DNA from: a virus
Lineage: Duplodnaviria > Heunggongvirae > Uroviricota > Caudoviricetes
Strand: one strand, 5' to 3'
IMG/VR virus record: IMGVR_UViG_2529292834_000005
Location: 1-27,540 of that record
Length of the DNA: 27,540 nt
Positions 15,741 to 27,540 of the stretch are shown here, piece after piece; positions within the stretch are counted from its first letter, which is position 1, and every line of letters begins with the position of its first letter. Below the pieces are notes generated by a model. That model was not told the origin of the DNA. It saw only the letters and a program-made list of their open reading frames with translations, and searched no databases. Position numbers and translations under genes: made by a program.

Positions 15741-16523
15741 TCATGCAGTGACTTTGGTCTGGTCAGGCGTAGAAAAATCTTCGAAAGATTTATAAGTTTC
15801 AGTATCAAATATTGAAATACTCTCAACCTGATCCATTGGGATTACATGCCTAAAATGATTTAAGTTCAGTGGAGTTGAGTCTGCTGTAATATTTTTGCTA
15901 AGGTAAAGTTCATAGTAACGATGCTGCTCATGGTATCTGAGCGTATCTTTATCACGATAACCACTAATGTATGGTATGAGAGCCAGATGCTGAGTTTCCT
16001 GATGCTCCATCCGAGGAGCAGCTACGTAACCAATGTAAACTTTTCTGGATTTTAGCGTAACAAAGATGAGCTTACCTTCATCTATAGCCTGAACTAACAG
16101 TGACTCAATTCCATCTTGAGCTGCCATCTCGCGATATGCAGATTGACGAATCTCTTCGTTTTCTATTGCTCTTCGCGCATTGTTACCTTGGTCATAAGCA
16201 ATAAACACCGCAAGCAGCATAGACAACACAAAGAACAATGGGTAAGACATTATCTTTACGTCTGTGAGCCATGAATAAAAGTCCACATGTAACTTAGGCC
16301 AAAAATAGCCAAAAACATTGATAACTGAGCTTATAACTAGCAAACTAACGAATGTAACAGCCATCAGAGTAAACCCCTGAATAGCAAACTTACAACCATG
16401 CATAGCTACATAAAAATAGGAATTCCAACCATTACTTCTTGCTTGCCTGATGCGGGACTGGTAATGATTTTCGGTGTACCAGAACCCGCAAACCAGGACG
16501 ACCATGATAACTAAGGGTCCCAT
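15741..16523 (-). CDS. Membrane protein, 260 aa, 3-4 N-terminal TM helices plus about 150-aa soluble domain; hotspot cargo
   Basis: Hydrophobic segments at about residues 3-17, 46-75 and 91-110; starts 3 bp after the 66-aa gene; occupies the slot of P2 tin/old next to cos. Confidence 0.75.
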   Translation of the reverse strand: MGPLVIMVVLVCGFWYTENHYQSRIRQARSNGWNSYFYVAMHGCKFAIQGFTLMAVTFVSLLVISSVINVFGYFWPKLHVDFYSWLTDVKIMSYPLFFVLSMLLAVFIAYDQGNNARRAIENEEIRQSAYREMAAQDGIESLLVQAIDEGKLIFVTLKSRKVYIGYVAAPRMEHQETQHLALIPYISGYRDKDTLRYHEQHRYYELYLSKNITADSTPLNLNHFRHVIPMDQVESISIFDTETYKSFEDFSTPDQTKVTA

Positions 16524-16526
16524 TCC

Positions 16527-16727
16527 TCATCCTTGTCGTTTTGCAGCCAATTCTTCCATTCTGGCACGCATTGATTCACGTACCTGCTTATTGTTCATGT
16601 TTAAGGTCGCCGCACCATTAGCATCTGTGATAATTTTACTATTATCAGACTGTTGCACATCCTGACGGATAACATCCTGCATAATCTTACCCGGTGCAGA
16701 GAGAACTTTGCGCAGAAGTTCAGACAT
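16527..16727 (-). CDS. Small hydrophilic protein, 66 aa, first gene of two-gene cargo cassette
   Basis: Start placed at ATG 16727 with strong RBS AAGGAGG; the ORF-track N-terminal extension is not supported by an RBS. Confidence 0.6.
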   Translation of the reverse strand: MSELLRKVLSAPGKIMQDVIRQDVQQSDNSKIITDANGAATLNMNNKQVRESMRARMEELAAKRQG

Positions 16728-16946
16728 ATTTTCCTCCTTATGCCTCAAACGCCACGGATTGTGGTGCATGGAGGCTGTCATCTTATAATTATAGGACAAC
16801 AAAAATACGAAACTATTCGAAGAGTGCTACGTATTAACCTATTTACATATCACCCTGCAACCAATTTATCCATAACTAACGCCTCGCACGGCTCGTTGCT
16901 CAACCTTGCGAACGGTAAAAACCAGTTTTATCGTCCGCAACGTTCC

Positions 16947-17180
16947 CTAATGTAACCAGCTGTCGTCCTCCCAGACCTGCTGCATGATTTCCATCACTCG
17001 CTTTTTGTCTTCATCCAGTTTTAACCCGCTCAGTTCAACACCATTGGCGCTGCCCTTACGGATACGAATTGCTGTTTTGGGATACAGAGGGCGCAAATTA
17101 CGGTAAAGCTCGGATTCAAGGGCTTCCAGTGTGACCTGGCTAATCTTCAGCTCTTTATCGATCATTATTTCAATGCGCAT
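16947..17180 (-). CDS. DinI-family protein
   Basis: 77 aa, MRIEIMIDKELK...VMEIMQQVWEDDSWLH resembles E. coli DinI from memory (MRIEVTIAK...ETWESADDW). Confidence 0.75.
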   Translation of the reverse strand: MRIEIMIDKELKISQVTLEALESELYRNLRPLYPKTAIRIRKGSANGVELSGLKLDEDKKRVMEIMQQVWEDDSWLH

Positions 17181-17191
17181 ACAGATTCCCT

Positions 17192-17380
17192 TTAACTGGT
17201 AACGTCCATTGACCGGCTGTATTCATGGCTGCGAATTTTCGCCATCAACTCGTCAGTCAGTTCAGACACCCACTGGATAGCCAGCCGCTTTTCTTCATCG
17301 CTGCACTCACTAGCCGCTACAAGCTTGATAAAAAAATCAATACGCTGGAGCTTCAATGACTCCAAAAGATAGTCCTGCAT
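17192..17380 (-). CDS. Small SOS-regulated protein, 62 aa, possible Tum-like antirepressor
   Basis: Start at ATG 17380 with RBS AGGAGG; LexA box about 50 bp upstream; in phage 186 the LexA-controlled tum gene sits at this end of the genome and is DinI-related (recollection). Confidence 0.5.
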   Translation of the reverse strand: MQDYLLESLKLQRIDFFIKLVAASECSDEEKRLAIQWVSELTDELMAKIRSHEYSRSMDVTS

Positions 17381-17427
17381 CTTCCCTCCTATCATTACAC
17401 GGATACACAACAACTGTATATATACCC

Positions 17428-17447
17428 ACTGTTTATATGAACAGTAT
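17428..17447. promoter_or_regulatory. LexA (SOS) box
   Basis: Seen: aCTGTttatatgaACAGta, a perfect CTGT-N8-ACAG with AT-rich spacer, in the promoter region of the 62-aa/DinI-like genes. Confidence 0.65.
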
Positions 17448-17538
17448 AATAGGAACAAAAAAATGTAAAACTGTTTTTTGTCAGTTAATTGGATACACTG
17501 ACACCAGTCAATAAAGCACGAAATGTTAAACAGCAGTC

Positions 17539-24042: not shown

Positions 24043-24675
24043 ATGAGATCCATCAAGGTAGGTAATGACAGCGGAGGGCGTGAAGCTATCAATAGGCTGA
24101 TTAAGGCTTATAACTTCAACTCTCGACAGCAGTTGTGTGACCATCTTTCCGTTTCAAAAAGCACTATGGCAAACAGATACTTAAGAGACAGTTTCCCAGC
24201 TGAATGGGTTATACAGTGCGCCCTTGAAACTGGGGTTTCACTGCTTTGGTTAACGACTGGGCAAGGGGATAAAAATGATAATAACGCGCAGGAAAATAGT
24301 TTTGGTTTTGTGAACCAGACCTACATCAAACCGTTATCCGAGGTTGTAGCGCCTGAAATTGATAAGGCCACATTAGATGGTGGCGCTTTAGTGGACCAAG
24401 GCAAAGTGATATTGGATAACAGTCTAATCCCCCACAACATGACAAACCCGTGGCTCATCCATACAGATGATGGCTCTTACCTCATTGACCGTAGCGGTAC
24501 TCCACCAGTAAATGGCGTATGGCTCGTTGATATTGATGGAATAAAAACGATAGCTAAACTTGCGCGCATCCCCGGCAATCGCTTAATTGTCCAGCAGGGT
24601 GAGTCATCTTTTGAGTGCAGCCTTGATGATATCGAGGTAGTAGGCCGTGCTATAAAAGTAATTAAGAGTCTGTGA
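24043..24675 (+). CDS. cI: CI immunity repressor (phage 186 CI type)
   Basis: Start at ATG 24043 (MRSIKVG...); ...CALETGVSLLWLTTGQG and C-terminal GVWLVDIDG...LARIPGNRL resemble 186 CI as recalled; no obvious RecA-autocleavage motif noted. Confidence 0.8.
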   Translation: MRSIKVGNDSGGREAINRLIKAYNFNSRQQLCDHLSVSKSTMANRYLRDSFPAEWVIQCALETGVSLLWLTTGQGDKNDNNAQENSFGFVNQTYIKPLSEVVAPEIDKATLDGGALVDQGKVILDNSLIPHNMTNPWLIHTDDGSYLIDRSGTPPVNGVWLVDIDGIKTIAKLARIPGNRLIVQQGESSFECSLDDIEVVGRAIKVIKSL

Positions 24676-25698: not shown

Positions 25699-26730
25699 AT
25701 GGAAAAAAGCATTTTTACTCTTATTTATTTTTCCCTTTTATTTTTGTGTCTATTTTCTTTTATTAAGTATCGACTTTACGAACTTAATCATAGAAGCTTA
25801 TTTCAACAACCACTATTCTGGGCTGCAATAGCGATACCCTTATTCACATGTCTTTATTTAGGCTCATTTGTCTGGATAAACAAATTAAACTCATTTAGCC
25901 TTACAAGCCACGGCTATCAGCGATTTCTCGACATATCAAAATTACCACTGCTAATTCTTGCATCTGCAGTACCTTTAGTCTCAATCGTTAATAACCTACA
26001 CCGGACCAAACAAACTGAAAAACAAATCTCAGAAGCAGAGAGAAAAAACAGAGTAGACTTATATTACAATCATATGAAGTTCCATCTTGATTTATATAAA
26101 AAGATTGAGTCAAAGAAAATCAGCAGTTACTATCCCATTGAAGAAACTCATAAAGAAGCTGTATATCAACATTTCATCAAACACCCGCAAGAACTTTACA
26201 GAAAAGCCTATCCCTTATCTTCACCAGATGACTCTCAATACTTAAACATCAGTGATAGTTTTATCATAGAACTGCATAAATGTTGGGTTGAAATCAATGG
26301 CAGACTGAAGCAACTATCAGAGAGCGATGTACAGCTAAATCCTGACCAAGAACTTTGTGCTTCAAAGATGAGAATTTTCTTTGGAATAATGAATATTTAT
26401 GAAAAGACTTGCAAGCATCTTTGTTTAGGGGGGTATCACACCCAAAAATCATTCATTTTGAATGATAAATTTGATAAGTATCAAATCTATTCGCCATTTT
26501 ATGACTTTGGAACTATGTACCAGTCTCTGCAGGCTCTGGAGGAAATTACATACGCCTTCCTAGATACATGTAGAAACGAAGAGGTAAATTTATATTTCCC
26601 GTTAGAAGACAAAATCCTCATCTATGGCGAAGGAATTCTTCAAGATTGGTTCAGGTATTCTCAGTTCTTGATTTCTACAGCTTATCAACCCTCCAGGATT
26701 GCGCGTCTACCAATGCCAGTACAAGTATAA
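25699..26730 (+). CDS. AT-rich membrane-anchored cargo protein, 343 aa (3 N-terminal TM helices plus about 245-aa soluble domain)
   Basis: Starts 2 bp after the int stop; hydrophobic segments at about 5-22, 39-59 and 80-97; markedly AT-rich; lies between int and the att core. Confidence 0.75.
   Translation: MEKSIFTLIYFSLLFLCLFSFIKYRLYELNHRSLFQQPLFWAAIAIPLFTCLYLGSFVWINKLNSFSLTSHGYQRFLDISKLPLLILASAVPLVSIVNNLHRTKQTEKQISEAERKNRVDLYYNHMKFHLDLYKKIESKKISSYYPIEETHKEAVYQHFIKHPQELYRKAYPLSSPDDSQYLNISDSFIIELHKCWVEINGRLKQLSESDVQLNPDQELCASKMRIFFGIMNIYEKTCKHLCLGGYHTQKSFILNDKFDKYQIYSPFYDFGTMYQSLQALEEITYAFLDTCRNEEVNLYFPLEDKILIYGEGILQDWFRYSQFLISTAYQPSRIARLPMPVQV

Positions 26731-26908: not shown

Positions 26909-27540
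<632 letters not shown>

What the first reader, a model, noticed from the sequence alone, without database searches (positions are those of the whole stretch)
16947..17447. LexA-box promoter driving a small protein and a DinI-like protein: probable SOS induction module
A canonical CTGT-N8-ACAG LexA box sits about 50 bp upstream of a 62-aa gene with a strong RBS, followed 11 bp later by a DinI-family gene. In phage 186, induction depends on the LexA-controlled antirepressor Tum rather than on repressor cleavage, and Tum is DinI-related as I recall. Here the function may be split into two genes, and the downstream hotspot cassette could be co-induced.
Basis: partly seen in the sequence, partly recalled or inferred. 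Interest (0 to 1): 0.5.

Follow-up and report, generated by a model that had tools for sequence, protein, structure and literature searches.

The report
LexA-controlled tumA–dinI prophage induction module
This is the DNA-damage switch of a P2/186-like prophage: a LexA-repressed promoter driving a small antirepressor gene (tumA) and a DinI-like gene (tumB). It is real, but the same module has already been annotated and tested in close relatives.

Summary
All features lie on the minus strand. A canonical LexA box (CTGT-N8-ACAG, 17444-17429) overlaps the -10 of a promoter just downstream of replication gene A. A 62-aa gene with an AGGAGG ribosome-binding site starts 48 nt after the box. A 77-aa DinI-family gene follows after an 11-nt gap.

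- Phage PSP3 has the same pair annotated as tumA ("similar to 5' end 186 tum; UV induction of prophage") and tumB (DinI-like).
- Lemire et al. 2011 state that Fels-2 and PSP3 carry tum split in two by a stop codon.
- In E. coli HS, in-frame deletion of the 62-aa ortholog (90% identical, same operator), or a lexA(Ind-) allele, abolishes mitomycin C induction.

The window's CI repressor is 186-type and shows no autocleavage domain, as an antirepressor mechanism requires.

Three details go beyond the finding:
- The operator is a colicin-type pair of overlapping LexA boxes, kept in 59 of 62 distinct promoter variants.
- TumA is 87-100% conserved across phages whose CI repressors are only 38-70% identical.
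- The variable cargo begins after a conserved hairpin that is not a canonical terminator, so SOS co-induction of the cargo is plausible but untested.

Low interest; already known.

The parts
17464..17469 (-). -35 hexamer TTTACA of the tum promoter (equivalent of 186 p95)
   Evidence: Read from the sequence. It lies 17 nt upstream of TACTGT. It is near-invariant across 62 distinct promoter variants. The architecture matches the annotated 186 p95 promoter.
17427..17446 (-). LexA box 1, 20-mer TACTGTTCATATAAACAGTG (core CTGT-N8-ACAG at 17444-17429). Its first six bases, TACTGT, serve as the -10 hexamer; alternatively TATACT at 17448-17443.
   Evidence: It matches 16 of 20 positions of the consensus. 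It is conserved in 186, PSP3, ESSI-2, Fels-2, SEN8, CFT073, Klebsiella phages and E. coli HS.
17414..17429 (-). LexA box 2, GTGGGTATATATACAG, sharing one base with box 1 (colicin-type overlapping dual operator)
   Evidence: The ACAG half-site is kept in exact register in 59 of 62 distinct promoter variants. The same arrangement, CTGTATATAAAACCAG/TGGTTATATATACAG, lies upstream of a colicin gene on plasmid NZ_CP010128. Colicin genes characteristically carry two overlapping SOS boxes (PMC2994835).
17385..17390 (-). Shine-Dalgarno sequence AGGAGG of tumA
   Evidence: conserved in all relatives.
17192..17380 (-). tumA: 62-aa antirepressor gene (stop codon included)
   Evidence: Identity is 100% to SEN8_47, 90% to E. 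coli HS ECHS_RS04495 (the 'tum' deleted in PMC11195241) and 87% to Fels-2 STM2728. It hits phrog_698 at 1.5e-36, with cross-hits to the PHROGs of the 186 Tum N-terminal half and PSP3 TumA. The 13 differences from SEN8 are all synonymous. It has no Pfam or NCBIfam family.
17181..17191 (-). 11-nt intergenic spacer between tumA and tumB
   Evidence: The gap is 10-14 nt in 75 of 80 IMG/VR loci.
16947..17180 (-). tumB: 77-aa DinI-family gene (stop codon included)
   Evidence: Pfam DinI at 1.1e-23. It is 39% identical to the C-terminal half of 186 Tum. It matches the E. coli DinI structure 1ghh at 1.3e-7 over its full length. It scores below the NCBIfam equivalog cut-off for chromosomal DinI, 48 against 111 bits.
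16902..16944 (-). Conserved hairpin directly after the tumB stop codon, with no U-run following it
   Evidence: Fold. In the alignment of 42 distinct sequences, 6 pairs show compensatory changes, for example GC 16 / AU 11 / UA 6 / CG 4 at one pair. The terminator scan does not call it. No Rfam match.
16850..16905 (-). Near-invariant leader GGTTGAGCAACGAGCCGTGCGAGGCGTTAG (16905-16876), followed two bases later by a 7-codon remnant (ATG 16873 to TGA 16850) of a third operon gene that is intact (85 aa, phrog_2100) in many relatives
   Evidence: Collinearity with 68 of 80 loci ends at 16850-16900.
15741..16727 (-). Co-oriented variable cargo: a 66-aa gene (16727-16527) and a 260-aa gene (16523-15741). 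Possibly co-transcribed with tumAB.
   Evidence: The same pair is present in E. coli CFT073 at about 90% DNA identity. It is shared by only 4 of 80 IMG/VR loci. There are no Pfam, PADLOC or NCBIfam hits; it hits phrog_22451 and phrog_3630, both of unknown function.
24043..24675 (+). cI: 186-type immunity repressor, the presumed target of TumA
   Evidence: Pfam Phage_CI_repr plus Phage_CI_C, the same architecture as 186 CI, with no Peptidase_S24 hit. It matches the 186 CI structure 2fjr at 4e-28. Apl-like and CII (CP76) genes are transcribed divergently from it.

Best explanation
This is the SOS-induction module of a 186/Fels-2-type P2-like prophage.

In the lysogen, host LexA occupies a pair of overlapping SOS boxes that cover the -10 region and the transcription start of a promoter just downstream of replication gene A. 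This keeps the tumA-tumB operon silent. DNA damage activates RecA and LexA cleaves itself, so the operon is transcribed.

TumA (62 aa) then acts as an antirepressor. It binds the 186-type CI repressor, which has no recognisable autocleavage domain, and stops it binding its operators. Early lytic transcription starts and the prophage is induced.

TumB is a DinI-family protein. It most likely modulates the RecA filament, and so the duration or strength of the SOS signal, rather than being needed for induction itself.

Shown here: the anatomy, the homologies, the conservation of the operator and the type of CI. Shown by others in orthologs: dependence of induction on LexA cleavage and on tumA. 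Inferred: physical binding of TumA to this CI, the role of TumB, and read-through into the cargo.
For: - Anatomy.
- The promoter architecture is the same as the annotated, SOS-dependent p95 of phage 186, where a LexA site overlaps the -10 downstream of gene A.
- The LexA box is present at the equivalent position in 186, PSP3, ESSI-2, Fels-2, SEN8, CFT073, two other phages and E. coli HS, although the flanks differ. The dual operator is retained in 59 of 62 distinct promoter variants, with information content peaking at TTTACA, TATACTGT, ACAGTGG and TACAG.
- TumA homology to the 186 Tum N-terminal half and to PSP3 TumA is supported by reciprocal PHROG cross-hits.
- TumB is 39% identical to the Tum C-terminal half.
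- The PSP3 GenBank annotation reads tumA 'UV induction of prophage' and tumB 'similar to dinI and 3' end of 186 tum'.
[quoted passage not shown] The published primer junctions flank exactly the 189-nt ORF ECHS_RS04495, which is 90% identical to the window's gene and lies behind the same dual operator.
- The Fels-2 operon STM2726-2728 is induced by the mutagen MX; STM2727 rises 14.8-fold.
- The window's CI is 186-type with no S24 domain detected.
- ESSI-2 carries a TumA-like ORF behind a LexA box, and its record annotates no DinI gene downstream. This fits TumA being the essential part.
Against: - No experiment exists for this particular prophage.
- Direct BLASTP of the 62-aa protein against 186 Tum finds nothing, and alignment identity is only about 18%. 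Homology to the biochemically characterised Tum therefore rests on profile cross-hits, the weakest of which has E = 1.8e-3.
- The statement that PSP3 TumA carries the antirepressor activity is a personal communication cited second-hand.
- The E. coli HS CI is only 42% identical to the window's CI. That this TumA acts on this particular CI is assumed, not shown.
- The -10 assignment is ambiguous: TACTGT with a 17-nt spacer or TATACT with a 15-nt spacer. The generic promoter scan did not call this promoter.
Confidence: 0.9

Rival explanations
1. The DinI-like protein (TumB), not the 62-aa protein, triggers induction. It might do so by acting on RecA or on CI, with the small ORF being an accessory or a leader peptide.
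For: In phage 186 the DinI-like part belongs to the same polypeptide as the antirepressor, and shorter in-frame DinI-like products are annotated as 'modulates SOS induction'. DinI follows tumA in 75 of 80 loci.
Against: The E. coli HS delta-tum mutation is an in-frame deletion of the small gene alone. It leaves the dinI start intact, yet abolishes induction. In PSP3 the upstream gene is reported as the antirepressor. ESSI-2 has a TumA-like ORF with no annotated DinI gene. In Gifsy prophages, deleting the dinI homologue had no significant effect on induction. The tumA differences from SEN8 are all synonymous, so the protein, not just the RNA, is under selection.
Confidence: 0.04
2. The module is an SOS-induced accessory operon that does not control the lysis-lysogeny switch here. 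Examples would be a RecA modulator plus a small protein of another function, or mainly a driver for the downstream cargo. Induction would then proceed by another route.
For: TumA is 87-100% conserved while the cognate CI varies from 38 to 70% identity. That is unusual for a specific repressor-antirepressor pair. The cargo is co-oriented, and no canonical terminator separates it from tumB.
Against: The ortholog in E. coli HS is required for induction although its CI is only 42% identical to the window's. The CI has no recognisable autocleavage domain, so another SOS input is needed. The CI N-terminal DNA-binding domain stays 61-91% identical among these phages, which offers a conserved target surface.
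Confidence: 0.05
3. The LexA-box match is fortuitous and the operon is expressed constitutively or from read-through of the early operon through gene A.
For: The simple count of CTGT-N8-ACAG in the window is not significant by itself (2 found, 0.37 expected, 5 of 100 shuffles reach 2). The generic promoter scan does not report a promoter here.
Against: The box, its partner box and the -35 hexamer are the most conserved positions in 62 distinct promoter variants, while the spacers vary. The box is present in distant relatives whose flanks are otherwise unalignable. The 186 equivalent is annotated as SOS-dependent. Fels-2 STM2727 behaves as an SOS gene.
Confidence: 0.01

Closest known systems
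tumA/tumB of phage PSP3, the Fels-2 pair STM2728/STM2726.1, and 'tum' of the E. coli HS P2-like prophage
   Same: The organisation is the same: gene A, a LexA-box promoter, a roughly 60-aa gene, a short gap, a 77-aa DinI-like gene, then variable cargo before cos. The window's TumA is 87% identical to Fels-2, 90% to E. coli HS and 100% to phage SEN8. The dual LexA operator is the same as in Fels-2 and HS.
   Different: PSP3 TumA belongs to a different PHROG (1993 rather than 698) and aligns at only about 17% identity. PSP3 has a single LexA box 38 nt from the start codon. The window's CI is only 42-58% identical to those of HS and Fels-2, and the cargo differs.
Tum antirepressor of coliphage 186 (p95 SOS operon: tum-orf97)
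   Same: It occupies the same position downstream of gene A, with a LexA box overlapping the -10. Its N-terminal region is homologous by profile and its C-terminal DinI-like region is 39% identical. The CI is 186-type, and a downstream accessory gene lies in the same transcription unit.
   Different: In 186 the two parts form one 146-aa polypeptide, with internal in-frame starts giving DinI-like products. It has a single LexA box. A canonical partial terminator (t95a) follows tum, where the window has a hairpin without a U-run.
LexA-controlled small antirepressors of the Gifsy and Fels-1 prophages (GfoA, GftA, FsoA)
   Same: These are small SOS-induced proteins that inactivate a non-cleavable repressor by binding it. 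They are encoded in a LexA-controlled operon together with a dinI homologue (PMC3121763).
   Different: The gene order is reversed (dinI first). The phages are lambdoid and the repressor family is different. No sequence relationship was seen here.
Colicin operon operators (two overlapping SOS boxes)
   Same: The operator layout is the same: CTGT-N8-(A/C)CAG overlapping by one base with GTGG-N8-ACAG. The Fels-2 version aligns with colicin promoters at 82-85% identity over 47 nt.
   Different: The downstream genes are different and the -35 region differs. Whether the similarity reflects common descent or convergence on LexA binding was not determined.

Membership tests
LexA (SOS) operator of Enterobacteriaceae | Palindrome CTGT-N8-ACAG with an A+T-rich spacer, close to the 20-mer TACTGTATATATATACAGTA | tested here: met
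   TACTGTTCATATAAACAGTG matches 16 of 20 positions, and the spacer TCATATAA is A+T-rich.
LexA (SOS) operator of Enterobacteriaceae | Overlaps the core promoter of the regulated gene | tested here: met
   The box starts at the -10 (TACTGT, 17 nt after TTTACA), as in the annotated 186 p95 promoter.
LexA (SOS) operator of Enterobacteriaceae | Conserved among orthologous promoters while neighbouring bases drift | tested here: met
   Box 1 is present in 78 of 80 IMG/VR loci and in all 8 reference phages and prophages. Box 2 is in register in 59 of 62 distinct variants.
LexA (SOS) operator of Enterobacteriaceae | LexA binding and DNA-damage-dependent derepression | not testable with these tools
   Available for orthologs only: the lexA(Ind-) allele blocks induction in E. 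coli HS, and Fels-2 STM2727 rises 14.8-fold with MX.
Tum-type antirepressor, split form (TumA) | Sequence homology to the N-terminal half of 186 Tum and to PSP3 TumA | tested here: met
   The PHROG hits are reciprocal. The window protein hits phrog_698 (1.5e-36), phrog_8554 (2.3e-8) and phrog_1993 (1.8e-3). 186 Tum hits phrog_1993 (1.4e-22), phrog_8554 (1.4e-11) and phrog_698 (2.7e-5), in the same register. PSP3 TumA hits phrog_1993 (2.7e-32). Pairwise BLASTP is negative, so the link is detectable only at profile level.
Tum-type antirepressor, split form (TumA) | Encoded directly downstream of gene A behind a LexA-repressed promoter and followed by a DinI-like reading frame | tested here: met
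Tum-type antirepressor, split form (TumA) | The cognate repressor is a 186-type CI without a RecA-stimulated autocleavage domain | tested here: met
   Pfam Phage_CI_repr plus Phage_CI_C and no Peptidase_S24 hit at E <= 0.01. PDB 2fjr (186 CI) matches at 4e-28.
Tum-type antirepressor, split form (TumA) | Binds CI and prevents operator binding; required for SOS induction | not testable with these tools
   Requirement for induction has been shown for the 90%-identical E. coli HS ortholog. Binding has been shown only for 186 Tum, according to the 186 record's annotation 'inhibits CI DNA binding' and PMC3121763.
186 Tum (single-polypeptide form) | Antirepressor and DinI-like parts fused in one reading frame of about 146 aa | tested here: not met
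   A stop codon at 17194-17192, an 11-nt gap and a separate ATG at 17180. The module therefore belongs to the split tumA/tumB form, not the fused form.
DinI family (Pfam PF06183) | Full-length match to the DinI domain above the curated cut-off, including the acidic C-terminal helix | tested here: met
   83.7 bits against a cut-off of 24.2. Residues 1-75 align with residues 1-77 of E. coli DinI (1ghh), including EIMQQVWEDDSW against EILQETWESADDW.
Chromosomal DinI equivalog (NCBIfam NF007893) | Score above the equivalog cut-off | tested here: not met
   48.1 bits against a cut-off of 111. It is a phage paralog of the family, not the host dinI.

The most novel reading that the evidence does not exclude
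In Fels-2/SEN8-type P2-like prophages, the LexA-repressed tum promoter may also be the main driver of co-oriented cargo in the adjacent gpA-gpQ defence hotspot. Transcription would read through a conserved, covarying hairpin that is not a terminator. Part of this hotspot's anti-phage repertoire, including the window's 66-aa and 260-aa pair, would then be switched on by DNA damage rather than expressed constitutively in the lysogen. Term searches of the two hotspot surveys consulted found no mention of tum, DinI, LexA or SOS.
Probability: 0.35. Interest if true: 0.4.

Novelty: already known. Interest (0 to 1): 0.15.

Why it matters
For this window it mainly settles annotation. The 'hypothetical protein' between gene A and dinI is the prophage's SOS antirepressor, and the prophage should be inducible by mitomycin C or UV through LexA rather than through repressor cleavage.

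TumA has no Pfam or NCBIfam model and is labelled hypothetical in nearly all the records seen here. Transferring the tumA name would therefore correct a widespread annotation gap.

Three side observations could be worth a short experimental follow-up, but none changes the known picture of 186-type induction:
- the colicin-type double operator;
- one TumA allele serving CI repressors that are only 38-70% identical;
- a defence-hotspot cargo sitting in the SOS transcription unit.

Tried and rejected
- BLASTP of the 62-aa protein against 186 Tum gave no alignment. Homology had to be shown through PHROG profiles instead.
- Pfam, NCBIfam and PADLOC have no family for TumA, and the PDB holds no relative.
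- The generic promoter and terminator scan found neither the tum promoter nor a terminator after dinI.
- The second CTGT-N8-ACAG (17072-17087) was considered as a second operator and rejected. It lies inside the dinI coding sequence (codons for LYPKTA), has a G+C-rich spacer and 8 mismatches to the 20-mer, and is absent from Fels-2.
- A weak PHROG 'UmuD-like' hit on the CI C-terminal domain raised the possibility of a cleavable repressor. It was rejected because Pfam gives the 186-type CI C-terminal domain and no S24 hit.
- The conserved 30-nt motif after the hairpin was considered as a recombination site or a promoter. It is better explained as the leader, ribosome-binding site and start of a third operon gene that is intact in many relatives and truncated here. 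Rfam has no match.
- An exact 36-mer search of one-genome-per-species contigs for the window's operator found nothing, so the host species was not identified.
- An alignment-based locus search failed because no stretch of columns was conserved enough.
- Bunny et al. 2002 (PMC151935) is not held.
- A whole-word literature search for TumA/TumB returned only unrelated uses of the words.

Full report
**What is in the sequence**

The finding's coordinates are right, but every element lies on the minus strand. Reading the minus strand downstream of the 816-aa replication gene A (19989-17539), the order is as follows:
- a -35 hexamer TTTACA (17469-17464);
- 17 nt of spacer;
- TACTGT (17446-17441), which opens the 20-mer TACTGTTCATATAAACAGTG (17446-17427);
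- AGGAGG (17390-17385);
- an ATG at 17380 opening a 62-codon frame that stops at 17194-17192;
- 11 nt of spacer;
- a 77-codon frame (17180-16947).

CTGT-N8-ACAG occurs twice in the window against 0.37 expected, which is not significant on its own. The longer TACTGT-N8-ACAGT occurs only at this site. The 77-aa protein is a clear DinI-family member: Pfam 83.7 bits against a cut-off of 24.2, and a full-length match to E. coli DinI structure 1ghh. The 62-aa frame is a real gene. Its 13 nucleotide differences from the phage SEN8 copy are all synonymous, and against Fels-2, CFT073 and a Klebsiella phage synonymous codon changes outnumber non-synonymous ones by about 2.5 to 1. The longer 121-codon frame listed by the ORF finder runs through the promoter and through a region that varies in length between relatives (box-to-ATG distance 63-94 nt). 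The 62-codon start is therefore the right one.

**Context**

The window is a P2/186-like prophage of the Felsduovirus type. It carries terminase, portal and capsid genes, gene A and a Dam methylase. Its switch region holds a CII (CP76) gene, an Apl-like gene, a divergently transcribed cI and int. The CI has the two Pfam domains of 186 CI and matches the 186 CI crystal structure 2fjr at 4e-28. It has no Peptidase_S24 hit. This is the repressor type that needs an antirepressor rather than RecA-stimulated self-cleavage.

**Relation to phage 186 Tum**

In the 186 record, the SOS-dependent promoter p95 lies downstream of gene A. Its -10 is TACTGT, the first bases of a LexA site, and it drives tum (146 aa) and orf97. 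The window has the same architecture.
- The 77-aa protein is 39% identical to Tum residues 71-145.
- BLASTP does not align the 62-aa protein with Tum, but profiles connect them. The window protein hits phrog_698 (1.5e-36), phrog_8554 (2.3e-8) and phrog_1993 (1.8e-3). 186 Tum hits phrog_1993 (1.4e-22), phrog_8554 (1.4e-11) and phrog_698 (2.7e-5) over the same residues. PSP3 TumA is phrog_1993.

**It is already known**

- The PSP3 record names the two genes tumA ("similar to 5' end 186 tum; UV induction of prophage") and tumB ("similar to dinI and 3' end of 186 tum").
- The Fels-2 record points from its DinI-like gene to PSP3 TumB.
In E. coli HS, an in-frame deletion of "tum" and a lexA(Ind-) allele each abolish lysis and viral foci after mitomycin C (PMC11195241).
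- I mapped the published deletion primers. They flank exactly a 189-nt ORF (ECHS_RS04495, annotated "hypothetical protein"). Its product is 90% identical to the window's 62-aa protein, and it is followed 10 nt later by a DinI-like gene.
- In Salmonella TA100, the Fels-2 operon STM2726-STM2727-STM2728 is induced by the mutagen MX. STM2727 rises 14.8-fold, and all three genes are significant (PMC2225428).

**Conservation of the operator**

The LexA box is present at the equivalent position in 186, PSP3, ESSI-2, Fels-2, SEN8, CFT073, a Klebsiella phage, phage 500465-1 and E. coli HS, although the flanks are largely unalignable between the groups. A scan of IMG/VR returned 595 loci encoding a relative, and 80 were kept. 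These 80 carry 67 distinct promoter sequences. Seventy-eight of the 80 have the box. The other two have rearranged upstream regions.

Box 1 is followed, with a one-base overlap, by a second box, GTGGGTATATATACAG (17429-17414). Its ACAG half-site is in exact register in 59 of 62 distinct variants. Information content peaks at TTTACA, TATACTGT, ACAGTGG and TACAG, while the spacers drift.

This is the layout of colicin operators. The Fels-2 version matches hundreds of small Col-type plasmids at 82-85% over 47 nt. In one of them the match (CTGTATATAAAACCAGTGGTTATATATACAG) sits between a TTGACA and a colicin-like pore-forming gene. [quoted passage not shown] 186, PSP3 and ESSI-2 have only one box. 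By inference, the double operator sets a higher threshold or a delay for induction. I could not check whether Bunny et al. 2002 already described it.

**TumA and CI do not co-vary**

| Phage or prophage | TumA identity to window | CI identity to window |
|---|---|---|
| SEN8 | 100% | 70% |
| Klebsiella ST13-OXA48phi12.1 | 97% | 41% |
| E. coli HS | 90% | 42% |
| Klebsiella 4LV2017 | 89% | 38% |
| Fels-2 | 87% | 58% |

Within CI, the N-terminal DNA-binding domain is much better conserved (61-91%) than the linker and C-terminal domain (28-63%). This fits TumA contacting the DNA-binding domain and working across immunity types, as the Gifsy antirepressors do. That is inference only.

ESSI-2 carries a TumA-like ORF behind a LexA box, and its record annotates no DinI gene downstream. 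Together with the HS deletion, this argues that TumA is the essential part and TumB is a modulator.

**Downstream of tumB**

Directly after the stop codon lies a hairpin (16944-16902). Its stem differs between loci in a compensatory way: six pairs show double changes in 42 distinct sequences. It has no U-run, is not called as a terminator and has no Rfam match. Phage 186 has the canonical partial terminator t95a at this place.

The hairpin is followed by a near-invariant 30-nt stretch ending in GAGGCGTTAG and, two or three bases later, an ATG. In many loci that ATG opens an 85-aa gene (phrog_2100). In the window it opens a 7-codon remnant (16873-16850). Collinearity with 68 of 80 loci ends at 16850-16900, so this is where the variable gpA-gpQ hotspot begins.

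The window's cargo is a 66-aa and a 260-aa gene (16727-15741). It is co-oriented with tumAB, shared with E. coli CFT073 and with 4 of 80 IMG/VR loci, and has no hits in Pfam, PADLOC or NCBIfam. Among 24 cargo types, the longest ORF is co-oriented in 15 and opposite in 8; one type has no ORF of 70 aa or more. It is unproven. A lone TATAAT at 16793-16788 without a recognisable -35 leaves room for a promoter of its own. Term searches of the two surveys of this hotspot found no mention of tum, DinI, LexA or SOS.

**Verdict**

The module is the known tumA/tumB form of the 186-type SOS antirepressor system, with orthologs annotated since the PSP3 genome and tested genetically in E. coli HS. It is an ordinary, already explained feature. 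The remaining value is in annotation transfer and in three small untested points: the double operator, the broad TumA-CI pairing and SOS coupling of the hotspot cargo.

Noticed in passing
window 17414-17429 (minus strand): A second LexA box, GTGGGTATATATACAG, overlaps the first by one base. This gives a colicin-type double operator. It is conserved in 59 of 62 distinct promoter variants and in Fels-2, CFT073 and E. coli HS, but is absent from 186, PSP3 and ESSI-2.
   Followed up: yes
window 16902-16944 (minus strand): A hairpin lies directly after the dinI-like stop codon, with compensatory stem changes across loci and no U-run. Phage 186 has a canonical partial terminator at the same place. 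There is no Rfam match. Its function is unknown; it could be an RNA stability element, a processing site or a leaky termination signal.
   Followed up: partly
window 16850-16905 (minus strand); intact gene at L027:2012-2266, L036:2008-2265 and others: A near-invariant 30-nt leader with GAGG, followed by an ATG. In many relatives this ATG opens an 85-aa gene (MGSKDSNYQ..., phrog_2100, unknown function). In the window only 7 codons remain, which marks the point where the cargo was replaced.
   Followed up: partly
window 15741-16727 (minus strand): The hotspot cargo is a 66-aa protein and a 260-aa protein (phrog_22451 and phrog_3630, both of unknown function). There are no Pfam, PADLOC or NCBIfam hits. 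The same pair occurs in E. coli CFT073 (C_RS04475 and C_RS04480) at about 90% DNA identity. It is a candidate uncharacterised accessory or defence pair.
   Followed up: partly
window 17192-17380 compared with 24043-24675, and relatives: TumA is 87-100% identical across phages whose CI repressors are only 38-70% identical. The CI N-terminal DNA-binding domain is far better conserved than the C-terminal domain. This suggests one antirepressor allele may act on several immunity types.
   Followed up: partly
window 17072-17087: A second exact CTGT-N8-ACAG lies inside the dinI-like coding sequence. Its spacer is G+C-rich, it has 8 mismatches to the 20-mer consensus, and it is not conserved in Fels-2. 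It is probably a chance match.
   Followed up: yes
L006:1501-1680 (Cronobacter phage ESSI-2): An unannotated TumA-like ORF (GTG start, phrog_698 at 5.9e-17) lies behind a LexA box, and the record annotates no DinI-like gene downstream.
   Followed up: partly
window 25699-26730 (+) and 26978-27376 (+): A 343-aa ORF with a hydrophobic N-terminus lies directly after int. Beyond it is a further partial ORF of unknown identity. These may be a moron and the start of the neighbouring region, which would suggest the attachment-site end of the prophage.
   Followed up: no
L015 and L076 (IMG/VR): In two loci the region upstream of tumA is rearranged and LexA box 1 is lost, while tumA itself stays intact.
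   Followed up: no
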